Both the position numbers and the translations under genes were made by a program. Under the pieces are notes generated by a model that saw only the letters and a program-made list of their open reading frames with translations, did not search any database and had not been told where the DNA came from. A stretch of 64,000 nucleotides of DNA from a virus (lineage: Duplodnaviria > Caudoviricetes): IMG/VR virus record IMGVR_UViG_3300024272_002379; one strand, written 5' to 3'. Positions 311 to 34,957 of the stretch are shown here, in pieces; the stretch's first letter is position 1; each line of letters starts with the position of its first letter.

Positions 311-685
311 GGGCCTGTAATGGTATCGACAGGGGCATGAAAGTTATGAGTTCGTCCGAGTGGTGACGCTATCACCAACTTTAAAATTAAACGCAAACAG
401 ACCAATGTTAGCGGCTGCCTAGTTGCAGCTACCAAAACACAGTAAGATATTGCTGGTAACTGTTGAGGTTCAAAAACTAGCATAGTATAAGAAGTTCTCT
501 GTATACAACTTAGTGAACAGAGTGGTGGAGCAAGTAAGAAACCTTACTAGCCTAGTATCTCAGGTCTGGAAGACGATAGCCAGTGAGTGAAAGCTGAGAT
601 GAAATAACTCATTTAAGTTCGTAACGACGTAAAGACTTATAATGAATAATGTTTTTGGACACGGGTTCGACTCCCGTCAGGTCCA
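311..685 (+). ncRNA. ssrA: tmRNA, tag ANRPMLAAA* (393-422)
   Basis: 5' GGGCCTG pairs with 3' CAGGTCC-A with G3.U70; T-arm ACGGG-TTCGACT-CCCGT; GCA resume codon and Ala-rich tag. Confidence 0.95.
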
Positions 686-713
686 CTCTATATTACTATA
701 AGGAGACACAAAT

Positions 714-1559: not shown

Positions 1560-1634
1560 CGGAATGTAGTTCAGCTTGGCTAGAACGCTTGTTTTGGGAA
1601 CAAGAGGTCGCAGGTTCGAATCCTGTCATTCCGA
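1560..1634 (+). tRNA. tRNA-Pro(TGG)
   Basis: cloverleaf; CTTGT-TTTGGGA-ACAAG. Confidence 0.95.
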
Positions 1635-1843
1635 CTAAGACTTTTTGTTACCTCTAAGGCATTCTCTTATACGGGTTCCGTATGGGGGATATAAGGAGCG
1701 AGGCGAACCTGAATCTTCCAGTCTCTAAAGAAGAATGAAGTGGCGTTTATGGTTATTATTTCCTTTGTACGACAACAAAGAAATTTAATTCTTTTTCATT
1801 TTTTGGTGTTCCTTTAGGAATAAAGCTGTCTAACGACAGCTAA

Positions 1844-1923
<80 letters not shown>

Positions 1924-2010
1924 TTTTCAAAACGCCATAGTTTTGGAAAACCTCGTTTGTGTAAAAAATCATCGAACCTGGCAGTGTATAGGTTAACTGC
2001 CACCCCACAT

Positions 2011-2083
2011 GCCCCAATTGCACAGTTGGTAGTGCGACTGATTTGTAATCAGTAGGTCGGCGGTTCGAGTCCGTCTTGGGGCT
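2011..2083 (+). tRNA. tRNA-Thr(TGT)
   Basis: ACTGA-TTTGTAA-TCAGT. Confidence 0.95.
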
Positions 2084-2520
2084 TTGTTACATAAGCATTT
2101 ATGCCCTAAGTAGCAGATAGACATAAATGTGTAACAAAACGATGGTCTGCTATAATCGGTAAAGTTGTTCTATCCTGTATAGAGGTTATTGGGTCCGATT
2201 CAGGTAAAACTAACGAAACAGGACGATTTATTGGCGTACTTTAGTGAAAGCAGAGTCGAGTAACTAAAGAGAAAATCAATACCCAGTTCATCATTCTTTC
2301 TGGGTTACGTGAGACGTTAGTATGGTCTCGCCGTAAAGATTAAGCTGTGATATAGTATCAAAGCTATATTGCGGAATCAGGTAGGATATTTATATCAGAC
2401 CTAACGTATACATAAGTTAAAACGAAGGTAATCCAACAGTGAACCGCAGTACAGAAGGTGGGCCTAGTGTTTGTAATACAAAGTTAGACCGTGCGGGGCT
2501 AATGCATGTTTCTTATGATA
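2084..2520 (+). ncRNA. large structured RNA between tRNAs (possibly ROOL-like)
   Basis: ORF-free, many hairpins (TTGTTACA/TGTAACAA, ACCCAG/CTGGGT, GAGAC/GTCTC), tRNA-island context; family not verified. Confidence 0.45.
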
Positions 2521-2528
2521 CGGTATAT

Positions 2529-2611
2529 GCAGCGTTGTGATAATGGTAGTCGGGCGGTCTTGAAAACCGTTGTGTCGAAAGGCATTGGGAGTTCAAGTCT
2601 CTCACGCTGCG
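2529..2611 (+). tRNA. tRNA-Ser(TGA)
   Basis: GCGGT-CTTGAAA-ACCGT, long variable arm. Confidence 0.93.
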
Positions 2612-2750
2612 TTTGGCTAAGCATAGGTAGCCGTACCCAGATGACGAAACGACAGTCGTCATATAACAAGCCTATTGCAGTTTATCATGTACTAAACATG
2701 AAGGCTCTTCTGTTTTAGATGCCAGTCTGTGCAGGAGGGCCGAAGTCTCT

Positions 2751-2839
2751 GGAGTGTTACTCAAGTTGGTGAAGAGGGAACCCTGCTAAGGTTCTAGCGT
2801 CCATTATGGGCGGCGAAGGTTCGAGTCCTTCACACTCCG
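2751..2839 (+). tRNA. tRNA-Ser(GCT)
   Basis: GAACC-CTGCTAA-GGTTC, long variable arm. Confidence 0.93.
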
Positions 2840-3105
2840 TTAAGGCTGAAGTGCAATGCTAAATTTTTATGTAATAGCACGCCCGTAAAAGACGTTGAGG
2901 TTGAGGACAATGAGTATGGAAGTGGCCTTTCGAGGCCTAACACGAAAGTTTGACAATAAGTACCGAATGCATAAGATTGACCCATCTAAATGCTACGTCA
3001 GTGGGAGGAACTTATGTAAATACGTTGATACTACGAAGAAGTATCTGCTTGGAAAACGAATAGGTCATTCCCGTTTCTAGCATTTCTGTACGAAAACAGA
3101 ATTAA

Positions 3106-3199
3106 CGGAAGGTAGCCTAGTGGCTAGGCTTGTTGCGAAAAAACGGGTGAAAGCAACTGGAAACGCCGTTTGACGTGAGTTCGAATCTCACTCTTCCGT
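3106..3199 (+). ncRNA. tRNA-like RNA with pseudoknot replacing the anticodon arm
   Basis: acceptor CGGAAGG/TCTTCCG, D-arm, T-arm GTGAG-TTCGAAT-CTCAC; GTTGC/GCAAC crossing AAACGG/CCGTTT. Confidence 0.65.
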
Positions 3200-3379
3200 C
3201 TATATCATCAATATCAACTTACAACAGCCATGGTAATGTTGTGAGAGCGTCATAGGAAGACGTTCTTCCTACTTCAAAGAGACTGGAGTATGCAACAATA
3301 GCTGATGAGGCTCATGACCCCATAAATTGCAGGATAAATAAACAGCGTCTGCTGAAAGATGACAAAGATGATATTATTT

Positions 3380-3453
3380 GGACCATTAGCTCAGTTGGTC
3401 AGAGCGGTCGGCTCATAACCGATTGGTCCTTGGTTCGAGTCCAAGATGGTCCA
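3380..3453 (+). tRNA. tRNA-CAT, probably Ile2 (lysidine type)
   Basis: GTCGG-CTCATAA-CCGAT; GGACC acceptor like Firmicute tRNA-Ile2. Confidence 0.88.
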
Positions 3454-3503
3454 CTAAGAACTCAATACGCCTCTTAACAATGCGGACCACGTTGAGTCAA
3501 AAA

Positions 3504-3628
3504 CCTGGGGGAGCTGTGGCAAGCAGCCATCTGATAAATGGTGAGTTAAAATATGAAGATACTTTATATCGGCATATTACTATGGTGAAAACCCATTCAT
3601 TAACTAGGTTCGATTCCTGGCTCCAGGA
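3504..3628 (+). tRNA. atypical tRNA-Ile(GAT) with ~61-nt variable-region insertion
   Basis: acceptor CCTGGGG/CTCCAGG, anticodon arm GCCAT-CTGATAA-ATGGT, T-arm CTAGG-TTCGATT-CCTGG. Confidence 0.6.
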
Positions 3629-3783
3629 CTATAATGCCTAACGGCATTAATATGGAATAGAAACCCCAATCAATTCCGTGTCAAACGAATTTCAAGACTA
3701 CCAGGGGGAACCTAACAAGGCTGTTATTTGTGCTGCTTGTGGCGTTAGGCTGGTAGAAGTAACCTACCCCAATTACAATTAAA

Positions 3784-4488
3784 TATTGTGCTTTAAAATG
3801 CACACATATATCCTGGTGAAGATTGTTTAATCAACATGCCAGGGCATATCTACAGTAAGTATGAAATAATATTCGTTACAGGCTTAGCCAGTATGTTTAT
3901 TATGTAATACTGAGACGTATGAGAACATGGGATACTTTGTTCGGTAGTGCGTTTAACGGATATAAATCAAGTCCTAAGGACGTGGTGAAGTTCTGTTATG
4001 AAGAAGGGAACCCTTCAAACGATTGATATGGCGTAACTTATACATAACGATTAGTGTGACATGCTTTTGGTGAACAGAATAGACGCTCTCTGTGAGAGAA
4101 TAACCCTGGGAACTGGATGAGCTGGTAACTCATTACAGATGGCAGGGAATTACCAAACAAGTTCATTCGCTGTGATACCGAGACAACTCGGAGTATAACG
4201 AAAGCATAAGTCGCAAGTAGCCTAAGGCGATAAAAGAGAATATAACAGTGATAAGATGAATGAATGTATCATCAAAACATATTCTGAACGATTCGGGTGA
4301 AAGCTGGAGGTGCCAATCCTTCATGGGTTTTAGACTGATAAAAGGCTGTTAACCTTTATCAGTTGGGGCAAGAAGTATGGAAGTCATGAGCCATGCTCAG
4401 ACTTGTCTCCCCATTCGCATAATAAATCACAATGTATATTTTATAAGATGAATAAAAGTCTATATGGTGTGTGTTTTAAAGCACAATA
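3784..4488 (+). ncRNA. GOLLD-like giant structured RNA
   Basis: 22-bp terminal helix 3784-3805/4467-4488 (2 G.U), ~705 nt, no ORF, in phage tRNA cluster; 3' half resembles GOLLD as I recall it. Confidence 0.7.
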
Positions 4489-4507
4489 CTAACAGCAACG
4501 GAAACTA

Positions 4508-4536
4508 TTGACATTCCATTGCTGTTTTTGTATAAT
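4508..4536 (+). promoter_or_regulatory. sigma-A promoter
   Basis: TTGACA-17-TATAAT, 12 nt before tRNA-Tyr. Confidence 0.85.
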
Positions 4537-4548
4537 TACAATCAATTC

Positions 4549-4632
4549 GGGTAGGTAGACCGTAGTTGGTAGCGGGCCAGACTGTAAATCTGGTGCCTTC
4601 GGGCTCCGTTAGTTCGATTCTGACCCTGCCCA
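4549..4632 (+). tRNA. tRNA-Tyr(GTA)
   Basis: CCAGA-CTGTAAA-TCTGG. Confidence 0.93.
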
Positions 4633-4819
4633 TTTACATCAAGGACGGTTGGTGACAATTTATTTGTCAAAGGGATAAGGGCAATACATGTTACCGCTTA
4701 TCGTGTAGATGTGTAGTGCAAAGTGTATTGGTGTGAGATTGTTTCCATATTAGAGAAACAGCCAATCTTAAATGTGAAATATCTAATTAGAGAAGGATAA
4801 AGTAACAGCTTTGTATTAT

Positions 4820-4891
4820 AGAATATTAGCTTTAACGGCAAAAGCACACGGCTGATAACCGTGGTCAGCGGTTCGACTCCGCTATATTCTG
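4820..4891 (+). tRNA. tRNA-Ile(GAT)
   Basis: CACGG-CTGATAA-CCGTG; AU-rich acceptor AGAATAT/ATATTCT. Confidence 0.85.
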
Positions 4892-5112
4892 TTCTTTGTG
4901 AGTGTGACTACTTACAATGACCTAAAACGGCTCGTAAACTTGTAGAAAGGGCAGGCCGACGGGTAAGAGTGCCGCAAGTACCAAATAACCCTGAGGGTAA
5001 AACTGGGTTCGCCTCTTTTTGAGCACGGGATGCAGAAAAGAATAGACATCTCTCAAAGTTTAGGTAAATAAACAGCTTAGGTTGGTAACCTCTTAGTCAG
5101 AAATAACCATAT

Positions 5113-5185
5113 TGGGTATTAGCTCAGTCGGCAGAGCACATGGCTGTTAACCATGGTGTCGTAGGTTCGAGCCCTACATACCCAG
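5113..5185 (+). tRNA. tRNA-Asn(GTT)
   Basis: CATGG-CTGTTAA-CCATG. Confidence 0.95.
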
Positions 5186-5487
5186 TTTAAATCAAACTGA
5201 AACGAGTCAGGCCCAATCGCTCGATTAAGTATGTGAGGAAAGTGAGGTTGGTTGCCAGCTTACTCAAGACTTCGTGTGCTTGAGGACAGCCCATTTATGG
5301 GTCCCCACTGGTTGTAAAATGTCTTCGCATTTAAAGTGGTGTTGTAAAATACATTCCGCTTAATCTTTAGTTTGGTTTTATTTGGAGAGACATGTTGTAG
5401 CGGTTTCTACGTATGTACAAAGGCTCTGGACAAGTCTTATTTTTTGAAACAGCAAGCGTGCGATTATCAGGTTAGTCTCTCCAGTAT

Positions 5488-5561
5488 AGCGGGGTAGAGC
5501 AGTCAGGCAGCTCGCAAGGCTCATAACCTTGAGGTCATAGGTTCAAATCCTATCCCCGCCA
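5488..5561 (+). tRNA. tRNA-Met(CAT), initiator-like
   Basis: 1:72 A/C mismatch, GCGGGG acceptor, CAAGG-CTCATAA-CCTTG. Confidence 0.88.
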
Positions 5562-5636
5562 CTCATGAAAACAAGTGATTGTTTTCTGATATCAGGCATT
5601 TATCGGGTTCGAATAGATGTAGGTATTGTTTTTAAT

Positions 5637-10453: not shown

Positions 10454-12049
10454 ATGAAACAGTACAGAATTACAGGTAAGGCAAAAATTTTAATCATTGT
10501 CTTTGTTATTGTAGTATTGGCAGGACTTATCGGCGGTGGCTTAAAAACAGGCCTTATCAAAAACGACATCAAAGATGGTGGTAGTAATACAGTAGTATCT
10601 CAGGACAGCAATACAGGTTCTAACAAAAAAGAAGAATCTAATGCTACAGTAAAACCAGAAGTAACAGATACAATTAACCTCTCATTAGATGAGTGGATTG
10701 GTTGGAAATCTATTGTAGATGCTAATGGTGATTTAACAACAGATGCAGAAGAAGCTTTTGCTTTAATGGGTATCAATGTAAACATTCATGTTATGAATGA
10801 TGCCACACAGTCAAGTAATGCATTAATCAAAGGTGATTTGGATGCTGCTGGTTATACAATCAACAGAACTGCATTCTTATCTTCTAAGTTTAAAAATGCT
10901 GGCGTAGATGTTGTAATGCCATTCATTACTAACTATTCTAACGGCGGTGACGGTATTATCGCAAAATCAAGTATCAAATCAGTTAATGACTTAGTTGGTG
11001 CTAAAATCGGTGTACCAGAATTCTCTGAGGCTCAGACATTAGTTGTTTGGTTTGTAAACAATTCTAACTTAACTCAGGCAGAAAAAGATACAATTATCGA
11101 CAATCTTATTATGTTTGCAACTCCAGATGAAGCCGCTAAAGCGTTCTTCTCAGGACAGGTTGATGTAGCTGCTACATGGGAACCATATTTAACACAGGCT
11201 GAAAATATGACAGATTGCCATATCTTATTTAGTACAGCAAGTTCTTCAAATCTTGTAATGGATGGTATCTTATTCCGTAAGGATTTCGTAGATGCTAATC
11301 CAGAAACTGTAGAAAAATTCATTATGGCTTGTTTAATGGCTGCTGATAAATATGAAACAGATTTCGATGCAATCAGAAAAGTTATGCCTATGTATTCTAC
11401 AATGTCTGATGAAGACATTAAGGCAAACTGTGTTGCTGCTAAGTTAACAACATGGAAAGATAATGCTGATTTATTAAACGGAACTGCTAAGATTATGTAC
11501 ACAGACATGTGTGAAGTATGGCAGTCTATCGGTGAAGAAGTCGATGCAAGTATCGTAGATACTTTATTTGATGATAAATACATTCAGAATATCGCTTTTA
11601 ATTTCAGCAGTACAGATTCATCTTATGATACAGGTAAAACTCAGGTAACAGAAGAGAATAAACAGATTATTGCTGATACACAGGCATTACTTGGCGGTAC
11701 AGCATCTGTAACATTCGAGAAGAATACAGCTAAATTCTCTGATTCTGCCGCTGCTTCTGCTGAACTTAATAAGTTTATTGAAATGGCAAAAGTACTTGAC
11801 GGTGCTATTATCGAGATTGCTGGTAATACAGACCCAAATCCTAACAGCGACCCTCTCGATGAGTACAATAAGAAATTGTCTTCTCAGAGAGCTGAAGCTG
11901 TTAAGAATTACTTCATCATGAACGGTATTTCTGCTGATAGAATTGTTACGGTTGGTAACGGTTCAAGCAATCCTATCGTTGATAACGATACAGAAGAGCA
12001 TCGTGCAATGAATCGTCGTACAGACGTATCATTTAAAATTATTGAATAA
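10454..12049 (+). CDS. ABC substrate-binding protein fused to OmpA/MotB-like peptidoglycan-binding domain
   Basis: SNGGDGIIA, DVAATWEPY; C-terminal GNTD..YNKKLSSQRAEAV..NRR. Confidence 0.88.
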   Translation: MKQYRITGKAKILIIVFVIVVLAGLIGGGLKTGLIKNDIKDGGSNTVVSQDSNTGSNKKEESNATVKPEVTDTINLSLDEWIGWKSIVDANGDLTTDAEEAFALMGINVNIHVMNDATQSSNALIKGDLDAAGYTINRTAFLSSKFKNAGVDVVMPFITNYSNGGDGIIAKSSIKSVNDLVGAKIGVPEFSEAQTLVVWFVNNSNLTQAEKDTIIDNLIMFATPDEAAKAFFSGQVDVAATWEPYLTQAENMTDCHILFSTASSSNLVMDGILFRKDFVDANPETVEKFIMACLMAADKYETDFDAIRKVMPMYSTMSDEDIKANCVAAKLTTWKDNADLLNGTAKIMYTDMCEVWQSIGEEVDASIVDTLFDDKYIQNIAFNFSSTDSSYDTGKTQVTEENKQIIADTQALLGGTASVTFEKNTAKFSDSAAASAELNKFIEMAKVLDGAIIEIAGNTDPNPNSDPLDEYNKKLSSQRAEAVKNYFIMNGISADRIVTVGNGSSNPIVDNDTEEHRAMNRRTDVSFKIIE

Positions 12050-12062
12050 TTGAATATTGTGT

Positions 12063-12093
12063 AAGACCCTAGTTAATAGCTAGGGTCTTTTTT
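12063..12093 (+). terminator. intrinsic terminator
   Basis: AAGACCCTAG..CTAGGGTCTT then T-run. Confidence 0.75.
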
Positions 12094-12110
12094 ATTGGAG
12101 GTGTGGTGGA

Positions 12111-12533
12111 TTGATAAAGAAAACTCAACCATATGAAAAGTTAGTGGATTATGTAAAGGACAATCCACAAAAAGGATTAACCATTCCACATACAGAAATT
12201 GAAACAATTATCGGAATTCCTTACAAAAGTAGCAGATACTCATATCATGTTACTAAGGCAAACGATAAATTAACACAGGTTTCATTAAGACTGGAACCAA
12301 TTAACGGATTTGGTTACCGTATCATTCAGGATAATCAGTATGTTGACAGTATGCGTAAATCGTACAATATGGCAGTTAGAAACATTCAAAAAGCAAAATT
12401 CATTGCTGACAATACTGATGTTACAACTTTAAATGTTGGCGAACATATGGAATGGCATACTGTATCGCTAAAGATTAAGAACGCTCAAAGTGCATTAGAT
12501 GCGATTTTACCAAAACCAACAAATATCCCATAG
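12111..12533 (+). CDS. putative winged-helix protein, companion of RAMP gene
   Basis: helix-turn-helix then LEPINGFGYRI wing; TTG start with GGAGG. Confidence 0.6.
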   Translation: MIKKTQPYEKLVDYVKDNPQKGLTIPHTEIETIIGIPYKSSRYSYHVTKANDKLTQVSLRLEPINGFGYRIIQDNQYVDSMRKSYNMAVRNIQKAKFIADNTDVTTLNVGEHMEWHTVSLKIKNAQSALDAILPKPTNIP

Positions 12534-12543
12534 GAGGGAACAA

Positions 12544-13005
12544 ATGGCAAACGAATATAATTATGATGCTGCGATAAAAGTAATTCTTGACGCATTTACA
12601 GTAGGAACAAATGTTACATATGAACAATTAGAAGTTGCAATGGGATTAAAATCTCCTATTACATCAGCAACTCCTGCAAACAATTGTGCTCTTTCAAAAC
12701 TTAAACGTCGTCTTAAAGAAGAACATGGCTTAGTTATGAAAAGTGCCAATGTAAAAGGTGGCGAAAACAATTACTATGTCATTTCTAAAGTTAAAGATAA
12801 TGTAATTAGCAAGAAAGAATCCAATTCAGATAAGGATTCTAATTATGAAGCTTTATCAAAAAACAATCAGAAACTCTACATGGAATTGGAAAATGCAAAA
12901 GCTGCTAACGCAGCATTACAGGAAAAATATATTGCATTGCAGGAAAAAGAACTGGAGTATATTACAATCATCCAGTCTTTAATGGCTCTTGCAGGCATCG
13001 CATAG
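12544..13005 (+). CDS. putative winged-helix plus coiled-coil protein
   Basis: VTYEQLEVAMGL..LKRRLKEEHGL..YYVI; start moved to RBS-supported 12544. Confidence 0.55.
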   Translation: MANEYNYDAAIKVILDAFTVGTNVTYEQLEVAMGLKSPITSATPANNCALSKLKRRLKEEHGLVMKSANVKGGENNYYVISKVKDNVISKKESNSDKDSNYEALSKNNQKLYMELENAKAANAALQEKYIALQEKELEYITIIQSLMALAGIA

Positions 13006-13015
13006 GAGGTATTCT

Positions 13016-13516
13016 ATGGCAATAGTAGGAGAATGGATACCACAGTCTGGCTACAAAGGTAAAGCAGATGCAAACAAAGTAGCTTACGAAATTGAAACCA
13101 TTGGAATCAGTAACACTACGGATGAGTTTAATACTCAGGAAATGGTAGATTATGCTCGTAATAATCCAGGGTCAGAATTACATAAGTTATTTGAATGGAA
13201 CGATAGCGTTGCTGCTGAAGCATATCGAAATCAGCAAGCACGAGATATTTTACGTTTCTTAAAAATTACTGTTGTTGATGATACGACTCAGACTAAAAAT
13301 CCTACATTAGTTAGGTATTTTGTTAGTACTGGTAATCATGATGGTATGTATAAGAAAACAGAACCTATATTCCAGAATGCTTCAGAAGCAGATAGGGTAT
13401 TAGAAAATATGAGAAGAGACGCTGAAAACTTTATTAATAGATACAAAGCATATCTCAGTCTCAATCCAAATTTATCTAACGCTATTACAGCTTTACAGGC
13501 AGTTGTTAATCCTTAA
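13016..13516 (+). CDS. conserved phage protein adjacent to RAMP gene
   Basis: VDYAR..SELHKLFEWNDSVAAEAYRNQQAR motif; RBS at 13016. Confidence 0.7.
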   Translation: MAIVGEWIPQSGYKGKADANKVAYEIETIGISNTTDEFNTQEMVDYARNNPGSELHKLFEWNDSVAAEAYRNQQARDILRFLKITVVDDTTQTKNPTLVRYFVSTGNHDGMYKKTEPIFQNASEADRVLENMRRDAENFINRYKAYLSLNPNLSNAITALQAVVNP

Positions 13517-13523
13517 GTTTTAT

Positions 13524-14238
13524 ACCTTGCTGTATATATATTGGCTTTAATTGGTCAATGAAAATACAACAAATTAGGACAAACCAATCCAGCAGAGAAC
13601 ATTATCAGCATACTACAGGACATAAGCAGGATAGGACATCACAAACGGCTCGTTAGAGCCTTTATATATACAGCAAGGTTGTTGTATAAAGCTCATTATA
13701 GGACAGAATAGCTCATAGCAGATGATATCATTAAAATACATAATAACACAAAGTCTTTTATAATCTCTTATATGTATATCGACTTTAAATGCTTAGAGTC
13801 AATATACATGTAAGAGAGGACAGGACAACTCAGTGCATTTCTACCACAACAAATGACAATGTATAACAAAGCAGAGGGGCGATTTTCGCCCCATTTTTAT
13901 GAATACATATATTGGCTTTAATGGTCAATAGAACAATACAGTGCAGAGCAGTATATAATAGCTCAGTTAAGAATACCATAGCATAACACAAATGGCTCTT
14001 AGAGCCTTTATATGTGTTCATAAATAGATATATTGACTTTAGCAGTCAATAAGCTCAAAAGACCGTAGAACAGGACAGCTCATTACAAAGTAGTTCAGGT
14101 TAAAACAAGCGAAAACAAAGGCTCGTTAGAGTCAATGTATGTGTTTATGAAACACAAAAGCACAAAGACAGCATAATACATGTCAGTGCAACATAGGATA
14201 TTACAAATCATTACAAAATCCTATTGAAAATCAATAGG
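13524..14238 (+). repeat. array of six 5-nt-periodic (NYA-NN)n tracts in repeated hairpin scaffolds; putative guide-RNA array
   Basis: invariant A every 5 nt over 80 units; repeated scaffold arms ATATYGRCTTTA...TTAGAGYC inside long inverted repeats. Confidence 0.9.
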
Positions 14239-14256
14239 TAGAAAGCGAGACGCATT

Positions 14257-14913
14257 ATGGCAGCTAAAGTTACAGAAGAAGTAAAAGAGATTCAGAACAA
14301 AATTAATTTCGCTACAGCAACAATTACAATTGTTGGCGATAGTGACCTTATTCTTAACAAAATGAGAGATAGCACTACTCAGGAACTTGCAGATAAACAG
14401 GAAGGTAAAGTACAGGGTACAAAGAAACCTGTAAACATGTACGAGCATCTTGTTGGTTCCATTCATTGGCTCAAGGGAGAAGAAACAGACTATACAGAAG
14501 AAGGCTGGTTGAATGCATTAAAGAATAATGTTCCAGGTTATCCATCTTCAGGTATGAAGAAAGCATTATGTGATGCTGTTGTTCGTGTATTAGGCGAAAC
14601 ATATAGCACAAAGTTCAATGCTAACGTACAGATTCTTAATAGCTTCTTACCAATCGAATTTGGTTCAAGTGCTTATGATAAATCATTATTTAGCCCTCAG
14701 AAGGGTAGTCCAGTTCTTTGTTACAGAAATGTATTCAGAGATTGGAAAACAACATTTACAATTAAATATATTCCAGACAATTATTCATTAGACCGTATCA
14801 TCGAAGTTATTAACTGTGCAGGTTTTGCATGTGGTATCGGTAGCCACAGACCATCAAGTAAAGGTGGCTCCAACGGTATGTTCCACGTAGAATCCGTTAT
14901 GGAAGTAGTTTAA
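14257..14913 (+). CDS. stand-alone Cas7/RAMP-like RNA-binding protein
   Basis: beta1 ITIVGDSDLILN, PSSGMKKAL, YRNVFRDW, C-terminal Gly loop AGFACGIGSHRPSSKGGSNGMF. Confidence 0.8.
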   Translation: MAAKVTEEVKEIQNKINFATATITIVGDSDLILNKMRDSTTQELADKQEGKVQGTKKPVNMYEHLVGSIHWLKGEETDYTEEGWLNALKNNVPGYPSSGMKKALCDAVVRVLGETYSTKFNANVQILNSFLPIEFGSSAYDKSLFSPQKGSPVLCYRNVFRDWKTTFTIKYIPDNYSLDRIIEVINCAGFACGIGSHRPSSKGGSNGMFHVESVMEVV

Positions 14914-14921
14914 GTACATAT

Positions 14922-15650
14922 GGGAAGGAAAACCCTATAATAAACCGCTAAGATGAAGGCAGACCAAGGCTGTTGCAGGACCTGAAAAGGCGTTCGCACT
15001 TAGATGTAATAAAAGCGAAGATTAGGAGACTCATATGCAAAACCCTGACATATGACATGGAGAAATACCGTTGAATGCAACCAGGTAGTTAAGATTTTAT
15101 ACCGACAGAAACGACCGTTACTGCGTAGCTCAAAGTCGGAAGTTTACTTAATTGAAATAAAAAACAAATAGAGAGCAAAGGTAACAGCTAAGATATTACG
15201 ACCTCATGGGTGCCAACCACGCACACGAATCCGTATTAAATCTGACGTAGAGGCAAGTTCACTTAGATGCAATCAAGAACTTTAGCGTGGGTGCTTCACA
15301 ACTGCATAAATATTTTGAGAAGGAAAACTCGCTATCAAACCGCTAGGTTATGGGTCCCTTACCATGTTTAAAGACCTTGAACTCCTAGAGCGTAAGCATT
15401 TGTAACAAAAGTTTTAAAATTGAATAGTGGCTTTAGTGGTTTGATGGAAACCATCTCCCAGGAGGGGACTGGTGCGAATGAACCCAGGAGACAGGACTAA
15501 CTCCTTACACCAGCGAGTCTTGAATTAGACCGCTCGGAGAAACGATGCCCAGCTAAGTTTTCAGAGGGATAAGGTATGCTTTGCAGGAAACCCTCGGTGC
15601 TGTTTGCCTATTTCTCCTACCAGGCTTCTTAGATGCAATAAAAAGACCGA
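14922..15650 (+). ncRNA. array of five related pseudoknot-like RNA units
   Basis: repeated GCTAAG...CTTAGATGYAAT with variable 36-70 nt inserts. Confidence 0.65.
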
Positions 15651-15871
15651 TAAAACAAAATAGGATATAGTTGGTAATATACGTAGTTTCGGGTTCGAGG
15701 AACCATTTTCTGTACCATCCACAGGAATAAACGAAGAGGAATTACAAGTACATTGGCGACAAGGTGTGCGAACAAAGACGACCATTACAGTCATTCATGG
15801 TTAATCGTGTACAAAATGTATGAGAGTATCATATGCACTGCTCTCATACTACTTGTCGAACGAAATAAGTA

Positions 15872-15899
15872 TTGAAATATTTTTCAAATCTGTTACAAT
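15872..15899 (+). promoter_or_regulatory. sigma-A promoter (extended -10)
   Basis: TTGAAA-16-TACAAT with TG; precedes tRNA-Gln. Confidence 0.6.
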
Positions 15900-15912
15900 A
15901 TATAACACATAT

Positions 15913-15984
15913 AGGGCTATCGCCAAGCGGTAAGGCACAGGATTTTGATTCCTGCATCCGTTGGTTCGAATCCAACTAGCCCTG
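15913..15984 (+). tRNA. tRNA-Gln(TTG)
   Basis: CAGGA-TTTTGAT-TCCTG. Confidence 0.93.
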
Positions 15985-16069
15985 TTCATAGTGGTCAGTG
16001 TTAATGCACACTGTAAATAAAGTAGCCTCTCGATTGGCTTTCAATGGTCAGCTTTAACCACTATAACAT

Positions 16070-16244
16070 ACACGGGTTGTCTGAGCTGGTGAGAGATGAT
16101 ATCTTATCAATAGGCCAGTGAACTAGGTGCCAACCACTCTGATTAGAGTAGGGACATGTGAAAGTTATAAGGGAAGGAACGCTGATACGTAGCATTGTTT
16201 TGGTAACTTGATGAGTAGTAGAGGTTCGATTCCTTGCCCGTGTG
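16070..16244 (+). ncRNA. tRNA-like RNA with ~100-nt insert in place of anticodon arm
   Basis: ACACGGGT/GCCCGTGT acceptor, GAGG-TTCGATT-CCTT T-arm, CTTATCAA/TTGATGAG helix. Confidence 0.55.
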
Positions 16245-16259
16245 TTAAAGACCAAGCAA

Positions 16260-16332
16260 AGGTAAGTAGCTCAGTTGGGAGAGCACCCTGCATTGAGCGG
16301 GGTCGTCGCAGGTTCGAGTCCTGCCTTGTCTT
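16260..16332 (+). tRNA. atypical tRNA (loop CATTGAG, nominal TTG; identity uncertain)
   Basis: canonical D/T arms, A at position 33, two G.U in acceptor. Confidence 0.6.
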
Positions 16333-16494
16333 GATATAAGCTGAAGTCTTGAAGCCAAGTATAGTCATGCGGTGGGTGGATATTTACATTAGGTCCAATG
16401 AGATTAGACTTTAGTATCTATCAAATAGAACTGTTGACTAAAAATAATGCCCAGCAAAAACCATATGCTGGGCTATTTTATTGGAGGAAATTAT

Positions 16495-17043
16495 ATGAAT
16501 TTAATAGTAACTCTTTGCCTTATATGTATTTTTATTGAAATATATCATGTCTGTTACCATGATTACATATATAATCAGATATTTAATCCAATGTCAAAAA
16601 GACATGAAATGATTAAGGCATATCAAGATTTATGGCGTAGCCATGTAAAATTCGTAAAAGGCTATAGAGACAATAAGAAAAAAGAAGAAATCAGCCTTGA
16701 GGACATTGAGGCTATACAAAAACTAACACAATTTACAGAACATTTTGGAACAAAAAGCTCATTCTTTAAGAAAGAATTCGTAGATTATTTTGGCTCTCTA
16801 ATGGTTGGTAAATTTGTTCTTCAGCAGTTCATTGAGATTGCGTATTCAATTATTATTATCATTATAGCGTTAAACTTACCAATTGGTATAGGACTTGTAT
16901 TTTACATATTTATGATATTAATTTCATATTTCGCTCAGCAAAACGAAAAAGCCAATGCTGAAGATAAAATTAAATATCTCTACATAGCAGATACAATAAT
17001 CTGCATTACGGTGTACTTTGTAATTATTTTTGCATATTGTTAA
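16495..17043 (+). CDS. membrane protein
   Basis: several TM segments; start moved to RBS-supported 16495. Confidence 0.7.
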   Translation: MNLIVTLCLICIFIEIYHVCYHDYIYNQIFNPMSKRHEMIKAYQDLWRSHVKFVKGYRDNKKKEEISLEDIEAIQKLTQFTEHFGTKSSFFKKEFVDYFGSLMVGKFVLQQFIEIAYSIIIIIIALNLPIGIGLVFYIFMILISYFAQQNEKANAEDKIKYLYIADTIICITVYFVIIFAYC

Positions 17044-31650: not shown

Positions 31651-33036
31651 ATGGCATCAGCATCTAGCAATTTAGATTTCAGCGGTTTTGATGATTTATT
31701 TAAGGACATGGGTGTAAGCGAAAGCCCTTCTAATGCTGCTATGGAAGCATCAATCGCAAATGAGCAGAATGTTACAGCACAGCCAGTGCAGGTTGATGGA
31801 ATTCAGATTCAGAATGTAAATGCACCTATTAATCCAGCACTTGTTCAGTCTGGTCAGGTGAAAATGCAGCAGATTTTCGTAGAAATGAACAATCTTTTCG
31901 TAGAAAGAGATACATTGATTAAGTTAATGCAGTTAGCTGTTGTTACAGGTACTAACCTTTTAATGTTAGGCCCTCCTGGTACTGCTAAATCAGCTATTAC
32001 TTATGAACTTTGCGGTAGAGTAGAAAATGCTAACTACTTCCAGTGGATGTTAAATAAGACTTCTGACCCATCAGAAGTATTTGGTCCATTCTCTGTTAAA
32101 GAAATGGAAAATGATAAATTCATGCGTATTACAACAGGTAAGTTACCTGAGGCACATATTGCGTTCATGGATGAGGTATTTAAATCAAATGCCCCTACCT
32201 TAAATGCATTGTTAACTATTATGAATGAACATATCTTCTACAACGACGGTAAGCCACAGCCTGTTCCGTTAATCTCTATGTTCGGTGCTTCTAATGAGCC
32301 ACCAGAAGATGAAACTTTGGATGCTATGTACGACCGTTTCATTTTCCGTATCAATGTTCAGTACATTCATGATGCAGCTAACAAAAAGCGTATGCACGCT
32401 AACTATGTAGACAACAGAGCTGGTTTACTCGGTCTTGCAGGTAAGACTACAATTACTTTAGCTGAATTACAGGCTTTACAGGAAGCTTCTAAATCAGTAA
32501 AAGTTCCAAAAGATATTATCAACAAGTTCATTCGTCTTATCAGTGATTTAGACCGTCAGGCTATTCACGTATCTGATAGACGTCAGAATGAATGTTTCAA
32601 GGTAATGCAGGGTAACGCAGTTCTTGCAGGTAGAAACGTAGTAGGTCTTGATGACTTTAAATCTCTCATCTATGTATTATGGGAGAAAGAAGAGCACATT
32701 CCTATGATTGAATCTGCAATTCTTAAGATGGTTAATCCTTATGATGACCGCTTCAAAGAACTTAAAGAGAACTTCAGTCAGGTTAAGACAGATATCGACA
32801 GCATCTCAGATTCATCTCAGAAATCTAAGAAAGCAATCGAATCTAAGGGTGTAATCGAGAAAATCGTAAGCAAGACAAACAAGCTCATCAACGAAGCATC
32901 TAAGAATGGTAAAGATGTAACTGAATTTACAGAGTTCAGAGATGAAATGATTCAGTACAATCAGAAATTAATCTCTGCTGCTCTCGGTACTGCATTCGGT
33001 GGCTTTGGTGATGATGATAGCGATAGTCCCTGGTAA
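31651..33036 (+). CDS. MoxR/RavA-type AAA+ ATPase
   Basis: GPPGTAKS, EVFGP, FMDEVFK, ASNE, YDRF, SDRR. Confidence 0.92.
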   Translation: MASASSNLDFSGFDDLFKDMGVSESPSNAAMEASIANEQNVTAQPVQVDGIQIQNVNAPINPALVQSGQVKMQQIFVEMNNLFVERDTLIKLMQLAVVTGTNLLMLGPPGTAKSAITYELCGRVENANYFQWMLNKTSDPSEVFGPFSVKEMENDKFMRITTGKLPEAHIAFMDEVFKSNAPTLNALLTIMNEHIFYNDGKPQPVPLISMFGASNEPPEDETLDAMYDRFIFRINVQYIHDAANKKRMHANYVDNRAGLLGLAGKTTITLAELQALQEASKSVKVPKDIINKFIRLISDLDRQAIHVSDRRQNECFKVMQGNAVLAGRNVVGLDDFKSLIYVLWEKEEHIPMIESAILKMVNPYDDRFKELKENFSQVKTDIDSISDSSQKSKKAIESKGVIEKIVSKTNKLINEASKNGKDVTEFTEFRDEMIQYNQKLISAALGTAFGGFGDDDSDSPW

Positions 33037-33121
33037 TTCGCTAAAATATACGACAACATTTACCATTAACAACAATGCAGTTGTTAATATGACTTTTTAT
33101 TAACCAGAAAGGGAAAAATAA

Positions 33122-34957
33122 ATGGGAAACTTAGACAATTTAGGTTTTGATGAATTATTGGAAGAACTTGATGAGATTGCAAATATCTCACAGTCTTCTG
33201 TTTCAACAAACAGTGTTTCGCCAGCTCAGAAAAAGGTTGGTGGTTTTCAGGATATGTCATCAGAAGAAATTGAGCAGTTTCAGAGTTCCCAGGAATATAA
33301 AGAGTATAAAGCAGATATTGAAGAGGCTGTAAGTACACCTGCAAATTTTAAAGGTAAGACTGTTCAGGAAATTATGGGTTTATCCAATAGAAAAGATACT
33401 ATTGGATATTCCTATAATGCATTGGAGCATTATGATGTTGACATTGACATCTATCAGGACATTGTTGACCAGTCACCTGTTATGCAACAGACGTTGGAAG
33501 AGGGCGAGGAACTTCTTCCAACGTTTAAGTATTTACATCAAGATATCTTCTTAAGTCTTTATAAGTATAAAGCAAGAGTACTTCCTGAGACAGAAATGCA
33601 CATTTCTACACGTATGAATCGTGGTATTATTAGTAATTTGATTAACACACCAGAGTATATCTCATTGCGTCAGACTTGTCGTATGGACCAGTTTAATGCT
33701 GCATTAGGTACAGAGATTATTGGTAGAGAAGCTATTGACATTCTAAGAGAAGCCATTGATAAAATCAAAGACCTTCAGAAAAAGAAAGATGCAATGGACA
33801 GACTTCTTGAAGAAGAAGAAAAGATGGATGCTCTCATGGAAGAAATTGGCGATATTGATGAGCTAATCGAAGATGCTAAGCGTCAGGGTAATGGTGCTTA
33901 TGCCGCTCAGCTTGCTGCTGATAGACAAGCTAAAGAAGAGGCCGTTGCTCGACTTAAAGCAATGGCTAACAAGATTGCTGAAGAATGTGACGAACTTCTT
34001 GATGATGATGAATTAGCATCTGAAGTAAGTACTGTTATGGGTAGTACATTATCCCAGACAGGTCAGGAAGTACAGGAAGTATCTGACTTATGTCAGGCAT
34101 GGGGATTAGGTACTGGTGAAAACTGTCACGTTGCTTTCCAGAACAAGAAAGATGCAATTGAGCGTATTAGACGTTCCTCTAAATTAAATAAGCTTACTGA
34201 TTTAGTTGGTAGATTTAAAGAATCTGCCATTACTGAACAGAAAAAGAAAGCTAAACATGGTGCAGTTGAAATTAAATCTGTAACTGTTGGTAGTAGAGTA
34301 GAAGATACATTACCTTCAGACAGAATGAATCTTTGCAATGACACAACAAAGAAAGATTTCTATCGTCGTATGACAGAAAATCAGTTGATGACATACAGCA
34401 AAGAGGCACACAAACAGAAGAACAAAGGTCCAATTATCGTATGTGTTGATACTTCTGGTTCAATGCAGGGTGATGAGGAAATCTGGAGTAAAGCTCTTAC
34501 TGTAGGTATTCTTGAAGTTGCTCAGATGCAGAAACGTGACTTTGCTTGTATTATTTACAGTAGTCATGCTGACGCACCAATTGTTATCAAGAAAGATGAA
34601 ATTGCTCCTCAGAAGATTATTAATTGTGCCGAACGATTTCATAATGGCGGTACAAGCTTCGAGGCACCATTAAATGAAGCCCTTGAGTTAATTAAGGACT
34701 CAACATTTAAGAATGCTGATATCGTATTCATTACTGACGGTGATTGTTACGTATCAGATAGTTTCAGTCGTAAATTCAAACAGATGAAAGAAGAGAAAGA
34801 CTTTAAGACTCTCGGTGTATTAGTAAACATGGGTAGAGGTCATGTATCTGATAGCAGCTTGAAAGAATTCTGTGATAGTATTACACTAGTTAGTGATATT
34901 GCAGATTTGAAGGATAGTAGTTCAGATGTAAATAAGTCTATCTTTGGTGCATTATAA
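33122..34957 (+). CDS. vWA-domain protein (ViaA-like)
   Basis: MIDAS DTSGS, GGTSF, FITDG. Confidence 0.9.
   Translation: MGNLDNLGFDELLEELDEIANISQSSVSTNSVSPAQKKVGGFQDMSSEEIEQFQSSQEYKEYKADIEEAVSTPANFKGKTVQEIMGLSNRKDTIGYSYNALEHYDVDIDIYQDIVDQSPVMQQTLEEGEELLPTFKYLHQDIFLSLYKYKARVLPETEMHISTRMNRGIISNLINTPEYISLRQTCRMDQFNAALGTEIIGREAIDILREAIDKIKDLQKKKDAMDRLLEEEEKMDALMEEIGDIDELIEDAKRQGNGAYAAQLAADRQAKEEAVARLKAMANKIAEECDELLDDDELASEVSTVMGSTLSQTGQEVQEVSDLCQAWGLGTGENCHVAFQNKKDAIERIRRSSKLNKLTDLVGRFKESAITEQKKKAKHGAVEIKSVTVGSRVEDTLPSDRMNLCNDTTKKDFYRRMTENQLMTYSKEAHKQKNKGPIIVCVDTSGSMQGDEEIWSKALTVGILEVAQMQKRDFACIIYSSHADAPIVIKKDEIAPQKIINCAERFHNGGTSFEAPLNEALELIKDSTFKNADIVFITDGDCYVSDSFSRKFKQMKEEKDFKTLGVLVNMGRGHVSDSSLKEFCDSITLVSDIADLKDSSSDVNKSIFGAL

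What the first reader, a model, noticed from the sequence alone, without database searches (positions are those of the whole stretch)
13559..13645. Tract A spells the conserved motif of phage family-A DNA polymerases (QKGKIAELALGYGGS)
Seen: NN series AA CA AA GG AA AT GC GA TT GC CT GG TA GG GG TC AA. Fifteen consecutive units (CA to TC) fit Q-K-G-K-I-A-E-L-A-L-G-Y-G-G-S. I recognise this from memory as the motif-B region (RQKGKIAELALGYGGSVGAL) of family-A polymerases of Firmicute phages and prophages. The polymerase in this window is DnaE and the motif is absent here. Inference: the guide targets the replicase gene of competing (pro)phages.
Basis: partly seen in the sequence, partly recalled or inferred. 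Interest (0 to 1): 0.93.

Follow-up and report, generated by a model that had tools for sequence, protein, structure and literature searches.

The report
Phage VIPR guide RNA against PolA
This stretch is a guide RNA of a phage-borne VIPR system, a CRISPR relative first described in 2026 preprints. Its variable base pairs spell the first two codon letters of a conserved motif in the DNA polymerase of rival phages.

Summary
Tract A (13559-13646) is a run of 5-nt units, Y-A-N-N-a. Fifteen consecutive NN pairs (13565-13641) equal codon positions 1-2 of QKGKIAELALGYGGS.

- **Match to targets:** All hits lie in frame in family-A DNA polymerase genes. They form 95 distinct 44-mers that differ only at wobble bases.
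- **Controls:** the same NN series with 0-nt or 2-nt gaps gives no hits.
- **Neighbouring protein:** the gene just downstream (14257-14913) encodes a small RAMP/Cas7-fold protein. Its family profile matches the solved SUSP1 Vipr protein.
- **Conserved locus:** 81 related loci share the order accessory gene, then repeat tracts, then RAMP gene. Guides in relatives hit other conserved motifs of the same polymerase family.

This is therefore a VIPR system, described in bioRxiv 10.64898/2026.04.26.720920 and 10.64898/2026.04.26.720927. In that system the guide binds dsDNA by a 1-nt skip rule and silences competing elements.

Three features differ here. The constant trinucleotide is A-Y-A rather than GGY. 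A long stem closes vrRNAs A, D and E. Sister guides match host HsdM and a CpaB-like pilus gene.

RNA expression, DNA binding and silencing were not tested. This scan has already found VIPR loci on other DNA.

The parts
12989..13516 (+). Conserved accessory gene (vap-like; 175-aa ORF from TTG, or 166 aa from the ATG at 13016; phrog_15946, function unknown)
   Evidence: A homolog lies upstream of the Vipr gene in 80 of 81 related loci, with the repeat tracts between the two genes. It has no Pfam family. The AF2 model has pLDDT 81 and gives no clear fold match; residues 14-118 give only weak winged-helix-like rows at Z 5.5-5.9.
13524..13558 (+). 5' half of the stem that closes vrRNA A: outer arm 13524-13540 and 5' element 13541-13558
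   Evidence: It pairs with 13647-13679 in the fold of the scaffold. The outer arms differ between copies in the window, L239 and L240, with compensatory changes. The G-U pairs fit only a + strand RNA.
13559..13646 (+). Tract A: 17 pentanucleotide units (Y-A-N-N-a). It is the guide part of a vrRNA
13565..13641 (+). The 15 units whose NN pairs equal codon positions 1-2 of QKGKIAELALGYGGS (PolA motif B region)
   Evidence: At least 117 exact gapped matches, all in frame in PF00476 genes. The targets form 95 distinct 44-mers that differ only at wobble bases. The 0-nt and 2-nt skip controls give 0 hits.
13647..13679 (+). 3' element (13647-13660) and outer 3' arm (13663-13679) of vrRNA A
   Evidence: Close relatives keep the same element next to different NN series.
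13684..13753 (+). Tract B. Units 13689-13738 spell AFGDAYEYL[MI] of the type I R-M methylase HsdM
   Evidence: At least 120 genome contigs match exactly, and all translate to that motif. The ORFs carry HsdM_N plus N6_Mtase.
13811..13876 (+). Tract C, target not found. A + strand terminator-like hairpin follows at 13876-13892
   Evidence: L239 carries a near-identical tract.
13912..14006 (+). vrRNA D. Units 13929-13988 spell DIVDVYAVDPAT of an RcpC/CpaB-like Flp-pilus assembly protein
   Evidence: Of 20 metagenome hits, 17 are this protein, and most of them match all 12 units. It matches PF16976 and has a T2SSF neighbour.
14033..14133 (+). vrRNA E (tract 14050-14119), target not found
14150..14238 (+). 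Tract F followed by hairpin 14220-14238, target not found
   Evidence: The only hit is out of frame and looks like chance.
14257..14913 (+). vipr: a 218-aa stand-alone RAMP (Cas7/Csm3-like fold)
   Evidence: The AF2 model has pLDDT 87. The top Foldseek hits are all Csm3/Cas7, E 6e-7. VIA Z is 12.4, and 28 of the top 30 representatives are CRISPR RAMPs. The family profile hits PDB 36pp 'SUSP1 Vipr protein' at E 1.9e-5. Some homologs hit PF03787.

Best explanation
Tract A is the programmable part of a vrRNA of a phage-encoded VIPR system.

Shown here: (a) the 5-nt repeat with two variable bases per unit; (b) its exact, wobble-skipping match to the motif-B codons of a family-A DNA polymerase carried by many phages and prophages; (c) an adjacent Vipr-like RAMP gene and a conserved accessory gene; (d) the same gene-and-array order in 81 loci, with guides that differ between loci.

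Inferred from the published VIPR work: the + strand transcript is coated by one Vipr protomer per unit. Each protomer hides the constant trinucleotide (here a-Y-A) and presents the NN pair. The filament binds dsDNA, pairing NN with two target bases and flipping out every third base, which is the wobble base. This forms a gapped R-loop of about 45 bp on the template strand of polA and blocks its transcription.

The likely outcome is that a co-resident or co-infecting phage or prophage that depends on this PolA cannot replicate. Synonymous mutations cannot free it, except by a switch of codon family, as with Leu TTR to CTN or Ser TCN to AGY.
For: - **Repeat anatomy in the window:** 84 units, Y at position 1 in 72, A at position 2 in 83, positions 3-4 variable.
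- **Repeat anatomy in relatives:** 3438 units give Y 89%, A 90%, N, N, A 71%. There are 189 tracts on the vipr strand against 4 on the other strand.
- **Target match:** at least 117 hits, all in frame. They form 95 wobble variants. Only the 1-nt skip works. The targets belong to PF00476.
- **Protein:** the RAMP fold and the match to solved SUSP1 Vipr.
- **Programmability:** close relatives L239 and L240 keep the scaffold but carry other NN series.
- **Convergent targeting:** relatives' guides spell MFQFYGANRTGRWA, TGRWAGRII, DFSAIEARVIA and ADGYETDFYKKD of the same PolA.
- **No self-target** in the window, which uses DnaE.
- **Published mechanism, skip rule and inter-phage role:**
- **Strand:** G-U pairs in the stems and a + strand terminator-like hairpin (13876-13892, after tract C) fit a + strand RNA.
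Against: - There are no RNA data.
- The constant trinucleotide is A-Y-A, not GGY. The SUSP1 residues that read the two G's (D177, W178) align to S and G in this family. Protein-RNA recognition must therefore differ and has never been tested for this clade.
- The sequence match to SUSP1 Vipr covers only 59 residues, at E 1.9e-5.
- Two units of tract A have 6 nt, and it is not known how a filament tolerates that.
- The host of this phage is unknown, so it is only assumed that PolA-bearing phages meet it in one cell.
- Tracts C, E and F have no exact target.
Confidence: 0.82

Rival explanations
1. It is a working VIPR guide, but the PolA site is not a weapon against rival phages. It could control a resident prophage in some other way. 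It could also belong to a broader host-takeover programme, since sister guides match host genes (hsdM, cpaB-like).
For: Tract B matches HsdM in at least 120 bacterial contigs. Tract D matches a CpaB-like gene on large, chromosome-sized contigs. Published VIPRs can either induce or block prophages, depending on the target.
Against: PolA is a replication gene, not a lysis-lysogeny regulator. Silencing it most simply blocks replication of the element that carries it. Five independent guides in related loci converge on PolA, which fits a contest with that group of phages.
Confidence: 0.1
2. The periodic tract is only a binding platform or sponge for an oligomeric RNA-binding protein (TRAP-, CsrA- or Hfq-like). 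On this view it has no guide function, and the PolA reading is a coincidence.
For: A 5-nt period with a constant dinucleotide recalls TRAP sites. GGA motifs occur in the tract.
Against: Thirty of 30 bases match at least 117 genes in frame, while the gap controls give 0. Tracts B and D show the same behaviour. The neighbouring protein is a RAMP, not TRAP, CsrA or Hfq.
Confidence: 0.01
3. The tract acts on RNA: it would silence or sequester polA mRNA rather than the gene.
For: Published Vipr-vrRNA can pair with ssRNA in vitro, though it then forms incomplete filaments.
Against: The NN series has the sense of the coding strand, and the stems indicate a + strand transcript. The RNA is therefore identical in sense to the mRNA, not complementary to it. 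It can pair only with the template DNA strand.
Confidence: 0.03
4. The tract is a decayed or expanded fragment of a captured polA gene, or a mini-gene read in 5-nt steps to give the peptide.
For: The NN series has sense orientation.
Against: The third base of each unit is not the wobble base, since it would give TAA and AAT. All six tracts and 189 tracts in relatives share the same Y-A frame whatever they spell. There is no start codon or RBS, and no evidence for quintuplet decoding.
Confidence: 0.01

Closest known systems
VIPR systems (Vipr protein + vrRNA + vap). Type II examples: Escherichia phage SUSP1 and a Pseudomonas fulva prophage. Sources: bioRxiv 10.64898/2026.04.26.720920, 10.64898/2026.04.26.720927 and 10.64898/2026.10.15.759431
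   Same: - Phage-encoded.
- One small stand-alone RAMP of about 20-25 kDa.
- An adjacent accessory gene.
- Intergenic arrays of roughly 100-nt RNAs made of 9-16 pentanucleotide units, each with three constant and two hypervariable bases.
- Targets found by the 1-nt skip rule, with the skipped base on the codon wobble position.
- Guides placed on codons of catalytic-core residues.
- Targets in competing mobile elements.
- No self-target.
   Different: - The constant trinucleotide is a-Y-A with no G. Published forms are GGY, with the variants NNNGG, YNNNG and NNNNG.
- The G-binding residues D177 and W178 of SUSP1 are S and G in this family.
- vrRNAs A, D and E are closed by a bipartite stem of about 30 bp around the tract, in place of the 3' pseudoknot tail of SUSP1.
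- The gene order is vap, array, vipr.
- The carrier is a phage of about 210 kb.
- The targets include a replicative PolA, host HsdM and a CpaB-like pilus gene.
- Which of the seven published types it belongs to could not be determined, because the type tables are not held.
Non-canonical VIPR arrays found by a genomic language model (bioRxiv 10.64898/2026.10.21.760802): GAC/NN, CAC/NN, WGT/NN, TGH/NN and others, in 21 clusters
   Same: A 5-nt period with a non-GGY fixed trinucleotide next to a Vipr-like fold.
   Different: AYA/NN is not among the motifs named in the text. The full list is in a figure that is not held, so prior description of this clade cannot be excluded. Those clusters are said to repeat about 10 times. 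Here the tracts have 12-17 units.
Class 1 CRISPR-Cas backbone subunits (Csm3/Cmr4/Cas7) with crRNA
   Same: The RAMP fold (RRM core, G-rich loop, thumb). One protomer binds each guide segment, with periodic base flipping.
   Different: The window has no CRISPR repeats. No other cas gene was seen among the roughly 30 window ORFs scanned. The period is 5 nt with only 2 paired bases, against 6 nt with 5 paired bases. Guides are hard-wired in a repeat scaffold rather than acquired as spacers.
TRAP-binding sites (11 GAG/UAG triplets with 2-3 nt spacers)
   Same: A period of about 5 nt in a single-stranded RNA.
   Different: No TRAP-like protein is present. The variable bases carry sequence information that matches foreign genes.

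Membership tests
VIPR (broad sense) | A small stand-alone RAMP protein (RRM core, G-rich loop, thumb) encoded next to the RNA | tested here: met
   For 14257-14913 the AF2 model has pLDDT 87. The top Foldseek PDB hits are all Csm3/Cas7, E 6e-7. VIA Z is 12.4 over 157 residues at rmsd 3.6, and 28 of the top 30 rows are CRISPR RAMPs. The C-terminal G-rich loop GFGxGIGSGRxSGxGR is conserved. Some homologs hit PF03787.
VIPR (broad sense) | Sequence relationship to a characterised Vipr | tested here: met
   A profile of 52 family members hits PDB 36pp_D 'SUSP1 Vipr protein' at E 1.9e-5, and it is the only PDB hit. The match covers 59 residues (strand, helix, G-loop), so it is modest.
VIPR (broad sense) | RNA made of tandem pentanucleotide units with three constrained and two hypervariable positions, about 9-16 units | tested here: met
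   The window has 84 units in six tracts of 12-17 units. The logo from 3438 units in relatives shows two near-uniform positions. The scaffold is kept while NN changes in L239 and L240.
VIPR (broad sense) | Targets follow the 1-nt skip rule, with the skipped base on the codon wobble position | tested here: met
   Tract A gives at least 117 hits with 1-nt skip, and 0 hits with 0-nt or 2-nt skip. All hits are in frame. Tracts B and D behave the same way.
VIPR (broad sense) | A conserved accessory (vap) gene in the locus | tested here: met
   A homolog of 12989-13516 is present in 80 of 81 related loci, upstream of the array. Its fold and its relation to vap1-6 are not established.
VIPR (broad sense) | A structured invariable element capping the 3' end of the repeat tract | tested here: inconclusive
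   Each tract ends in a constant caAA unit followed by a hairpin. For A, D and E that hairpin is part of a long closing stem, with compensatory changes between copies. No pseudoknot was tested, and the RNA ends are unknown.
VIPR (broad sense) | No self-targeting | tested here: met
   The best self match is 7 of 16 units. Only the 64-kb window could be tested, because no whole genome is held.
VIPR (broad sense) | The vrRNA is expressed and co-purifies with Vipr. The RNP binds dsDNA and silences transcription | not testable with these tools
This needs bench work.
VIPR type II (SUSP1-like, canonical) | Constant GGY trinucleotide read by H17, D177, R138 and W178 and by a pyrimidine-only pocket | tested here: not met
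   The constant trinucleotide is a-Y-A, and G is at most 10% at each constant position. SUSP1 D177 and W178 align to S and G, while R179 is kept. This is therefore not a canonical GGY-type member.
VIPR type II (SUSP1-like, canonical) | A 3' tail with the SUSP1-type pseudoknot | not tested
   The scaffold sequences here (5' TTGGCTTTAAT..GTCAA, 3' GGCTC..GAGCC) were not compared with the SUSP1 tail, which is not held.
CRISPR-Cas class 1 | A CRISPR repeat-spacer array and further cas genes (Cas5/Cas6/large subunit/Cas1-2) | tested here: not met
   The window has no direct-repeat families of at least 22 nt within 120 nt. None of the 30 window ORFs scanned against Pfam or PHROGs is a cas gene.

The most novel reading that the evidence does not exclude
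This clade is an undescribed AYA/NN subtype of VIPR. It would have a re-built base-recognition pocket and stem-closed guide RNAs. The ~210-kb phage would use it against rival phages' replicase and also to silence host genes: the type I restriction-modification methylase and a Flp/Tad pilus assembly gene. That would make VIPR a general, programmable tool for host takeover and anti-defence.
Probability: 0.3. Interest if true: 0.65.

Novelty: new member of a known kind. Interest (0 to 1): 0.5.

Why it matters
This is a very clear natural example of the VIPR logic. A 45-bp footprint sits on the motif-B (O-helix) codons of a replicative polymerase. One guide fits 95 different wobble variants found in at least 117 viral contigs. 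Related phages aim guides at four other conserved segments of the same enzyme, including the segment that aligns with motif A.

Guides seem to be selected for sites where escape costs the target its function. This extends the published recombinase example to a replicase.

The A-Y-A scaffold, with the two G-reading residues replaced, offers a natural experiment on how Vipr reads the constant bases. That bears on engineering orthogonal VIPR tools.

The sister guides against hsdM and a pilus gene hint at uses beyond conflict between phages. How a 3-nt-period target is ever converted into a 5-nt-period guide remains an open question, and this locus does not answer it.

Tried and rejected
- **Rfam** on 12500-15000 at E up to 1 gave only a chance miRNA row. 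The whole-window gathering scan found no family in the array.
- **Exact gapped scans** of the inner 10 units of tracts D, E and C in IMG/VR gave 0 hits. Tract F (9 units) gave one out-of-frame hit, judged chance.
- **Tracts C-F against the 237 PolA and HsdM loci** gave no good match.
- **Tract D in five bacterial genomes** with up to 3 mismatches gave nothing.
It matches a CpaB-like gene.
- **Megablast of 12000-16500 against GenBank phages** gave only an 80-bp hit.
- **No whole genome** is held for the window, so host and self-targeting could not be tested genome-wide.
- **The vap-like protein** has no Pfam family and no Foldseek PDB match at E 0.001 or better. VIA rows are mostly a generic helical hairpin on residues 121-166.
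- **SUSP1 Vipr** did not appear in the two fold libraries, which seem not to hold it. Only the sequence search found it.
- **TRAP/CsrA-type sponge, mRNA antisense, pseudogene and quintuplet-translation readings** were considered and rejected (see rival explanations).
- **Complex prediction** was not used. A Vipr filament without its RNA is not a test the tool is suited to.

Full report
**What is in the sequence.** The window reads like part of a large phage genome. All long ORFs lie on the + strand, and it carries a tRNA array, a tmRNA and DnaE-type replication genes. Homologs of the key protein sit on contigs of 206-223 kb.

Between a 175-aa ORF (12989-13516) and a 218-aa ORF (14257-14913) lies 740 nt of non-coding DNA. 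It holds six tracts with a strict 5-nt period. Over 84 units, position 1 is C or T in 72 and position 2 is A in 83. Positions 3-4 vary freely, and position 5 is A in 51. A scan of the whole window for this periodicity flags only this region, and only the + strand.

**Checking the observation.** Tract A (13559-13646) has 17 units, two of them 6 nt long.

- Every hit translates in frame to QKGKIAELALGYGGS within LRQKGKIAELALGYGGSVGAL.
- The hits lie in ORFs of about 650 aa that match Pfam DNA_pol_A.
- Chance expectation is about 1e-18 per position.
- The same dinucleotides joined with no gap or with 2-nt gaps gave 0 hits each.
- The 117 sites are 95 different 44-mers that differ only at the skipped bases. 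The commonest occurs four times. A contiguous guide could therefore cover only a few of them.
- The flanking units (AA on both sides) do not match the neighbouring Arg and Val codons.

From my own knowledge of family-A polymerases, the segment corresponds to motif B (the O-helix: R..K......YG). The window has no such gene; its polymerase is DnaE. It also has no self match.

**What it is.** The 218-aa ORF has no Pfam hit of its own. It has 180 homologs, and some of them hit the RAMP family PF03787. An AlphaFold model built on 52 homologs has pLDDT 87.

- Foldseek returns only Csm3/Cas7/Cmr4 subunits at the top, E 6e-7.
- An independent aligner gives Z 12.4, with CRISPR RAMPs in 28 of the top 30 rows.
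- A profile of the family has a single hit in the PDB sequence set: 'SUSP1 Vipr protein' (36pp), E 1.9e-5, over the last strand, helix and G-rich loop.

A literature search led to two April 2026 preprints, and I read them. They describe VIPR systems as follows.

- A small ancestral RAMP (Vipr) polymerises on a vrRNA made of 9-16 YNNGG units, one protomer per unit.
- The GGY bases are buried, and the NN bases pair with dsDNA while every third target base is skipped.
- The skipped base usually falls on the codon wobble position.
- Binding silences transcription on either strand and needs no PAM.
- Natural targets are satellites, prophages and other VIPRs.

An October 2026 preprint shows a guide sitting on active-site codons of a satellite recombinase. 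Another reports 21 clusters with non-GGY trinucleotides. Tract A fits this description point by point.

**Evidence from relatives.** A scan of viral contigs with the protein alignment returned 80 loci, and one more came from an exact-protein look-up.

- Y-A periodic tracts occur 189 times on the vipr strand and 4 times on the other. They lie just upstream of the gene, or in some loci just downstream.
- The unit logo over 3438 units is Y 89%, A 90%, N, N, A 71%.
- The ORF 12989-13516 has a homolog upstream of the array in 80 of 81 loci. The two ORFs before it do not.
- The closest relatives (L239 and L240, 85-89% Vipr identity, contigs of about 210 kb) keep the scaffold elements but carry different NN series.
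- Guides of relatives match other conserved segments of the same PolA family: MFQFYGANRTGRWA (128 residues upstream of the tract A site), TGRWAGRII, DFSAIEARVIA (52 residues upstream; from my knowledge this aligns with motif A) and ADGYETDFYKKD near the C-terminus.

Five independent guides on one enzyme argue for a standing conflict with the phages that carry it.

That PolA family is common in temperate Streptococcus phages (the Javan series), and also in Staphylococcus, Bacteroides and other phages. Javan346 of S. oralis matches 29 of 30 bases. The one mismatch is a Leu coded CTA instead of TTR. A S. agalactiae phage matches 27 of 30. The wobble-skip rule is thus blind to synonymous third-base changes but not to switches of codon family.

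**Anatomy of the RNA.** In vrRNAs A, D and E the tract forms the loop of a long bipartite stem. This stem has an outer helix of 15-17 bp, whose sequence differs between copies with compensatory changes. It also has an inner helix formed by the conserved 5' and 3' elements. Several G-U pairs would be A-C mismatches on the other strand. A terminator-like hairpin with a T-run lies on the + strand at 13876-13892. The RNA is therefore read from the + strand.

The NN series then has the sense of the polA coding strand. The guide would pair with the template DNA strand and cannot pair with the mRNA.

Tracts B, C and F are not stem-enclosed. Each follows a scaffold stem and ends in a constant caAA unit plus a hairpin. 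The element at about 13764-13830 looks like an empty scaffold with no tract. RNA ends and processing are unknown. Cleavage of the long stems by RNase III is my inference only.

**How this locus differs from published VIPR.** The constant trinucleotide is a-Y-A, without G. The first preprint names the variants NNNGG, YNNNG and NNNNG. The language-model preprint names GAC, CAC, WGT and TGH. AYA is not named, but the full lists are in figures and tables that I could not read.

In the HMM alignment, the SUSP1 residues that read G1 and G2 (D177, W178) correspond to S and G in this family, while R179 is kept. This is consistent with a re-built pocket. The closing stem replaces the SUSP1 pseudoknot tail.

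The accessory protein has no recognisable family. It gives only weak winged-helix-like similarity, Z 5.5-5.9 on residues 14-118.

**Sister guides.**
- **Tract B:** ten units spell AFGDAYEYL[MI]. They match at least 120 bacterial contigs from many phyla, all in HsdM genes carrying HsdM_N plus N6_Mtase.
- **Tract D:** twelve units spell DIVDVYAVDPAT. They match an RcpC/CpaB-like protein beside a T2SSF-type gene on human-gut metagenome contigs, some of them over 250 kb. These account for 17 of 20 hits; the other three are a lipase with a 10-unit match.
- **Tracts C, E and F:** no exact target was found.

At least two guides thus point at host-type genes. Silencing hsdM at infection would not remove R-M enzyme that is already present, so the benefit is unclear.

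**Verdict.** The kind of system is already described, and this scan has met VIPR loci on other DNA several times. This locus is a new member with an unusual A-Y-A scaffold and an especially clear replicase target. Expression, binding and interference remain to be tested.

Noticed in passing
window 13684-13753: Ten units of tract B spell AFGDAYEYL[MI] of the type I restriction-modification methylase HsdM. Exact gapped matches occur in at least 120 bacterial contigs from many phyla. The target is a host defence gene rather than a rival phage.
   Followed up: yes
window 13912-14006: Twelve units of tract D spell DIVDVYAVDPAT of an RcpC/CpaB-like Flp/Tad pilus assembly protein. The gene lies next to a T2SSF-type gene on human-gut metagenome contigs. 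It may hint at the host, a gut Firmicute with Tad pili.
   Followed up: partly
window 13764-13830: A stem-loop that looks like a vrRNA scaffold with no repeat tract inside. The 5' and 3' elements are joined by a 4-nt loop within an outer stem. Tracts B and C flank it instead of being enclosed.
   Followed up: partly
window 13600-13605, 13621-13626: Two units of tract A have 6 nt instead of 5, although the target match stays in register across them. How a one-protomer-per-unit filament tolerates the extra base is unexplained.
   Followed up: no
window 3788-4481: A ROOL RNA (Rfam RF03087, 231 bits) lies within the tRNA array.
   Followed up: no
window 311-688 and 1560-5562, 15912-16333: A phage-encoded tmRNA (tag ANRPMLAAA) and 12 tRNA genes, two of them tRNA-Gln(TTG) downstream of vipr.
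   Followed up: no
window 14921-15900: About 1 kb of G+C-richer non-coding sequence downstream of vipr has no 5-nt Y-A periodicity and no Rfam family. I did not study it.
   Followed up: no
L254, L261-L272 at about 3658-3722: In the more distant Vipr loci (contigs of 50-60 kb), a 13-unit tract lies just downstream of vipr as well as upstream of it. Array placement therefore varies within the clade.
   Followed up: no
window 31651-34957: A MoxR-type AAA ATPase (bpMoxR) is followed by a vWA-domain protein. Further on are RecA, a UvrD helicase, an SbcCD-like nuclease and a DnaG primase, in a DnaE-based replication module.
   Followed up: no
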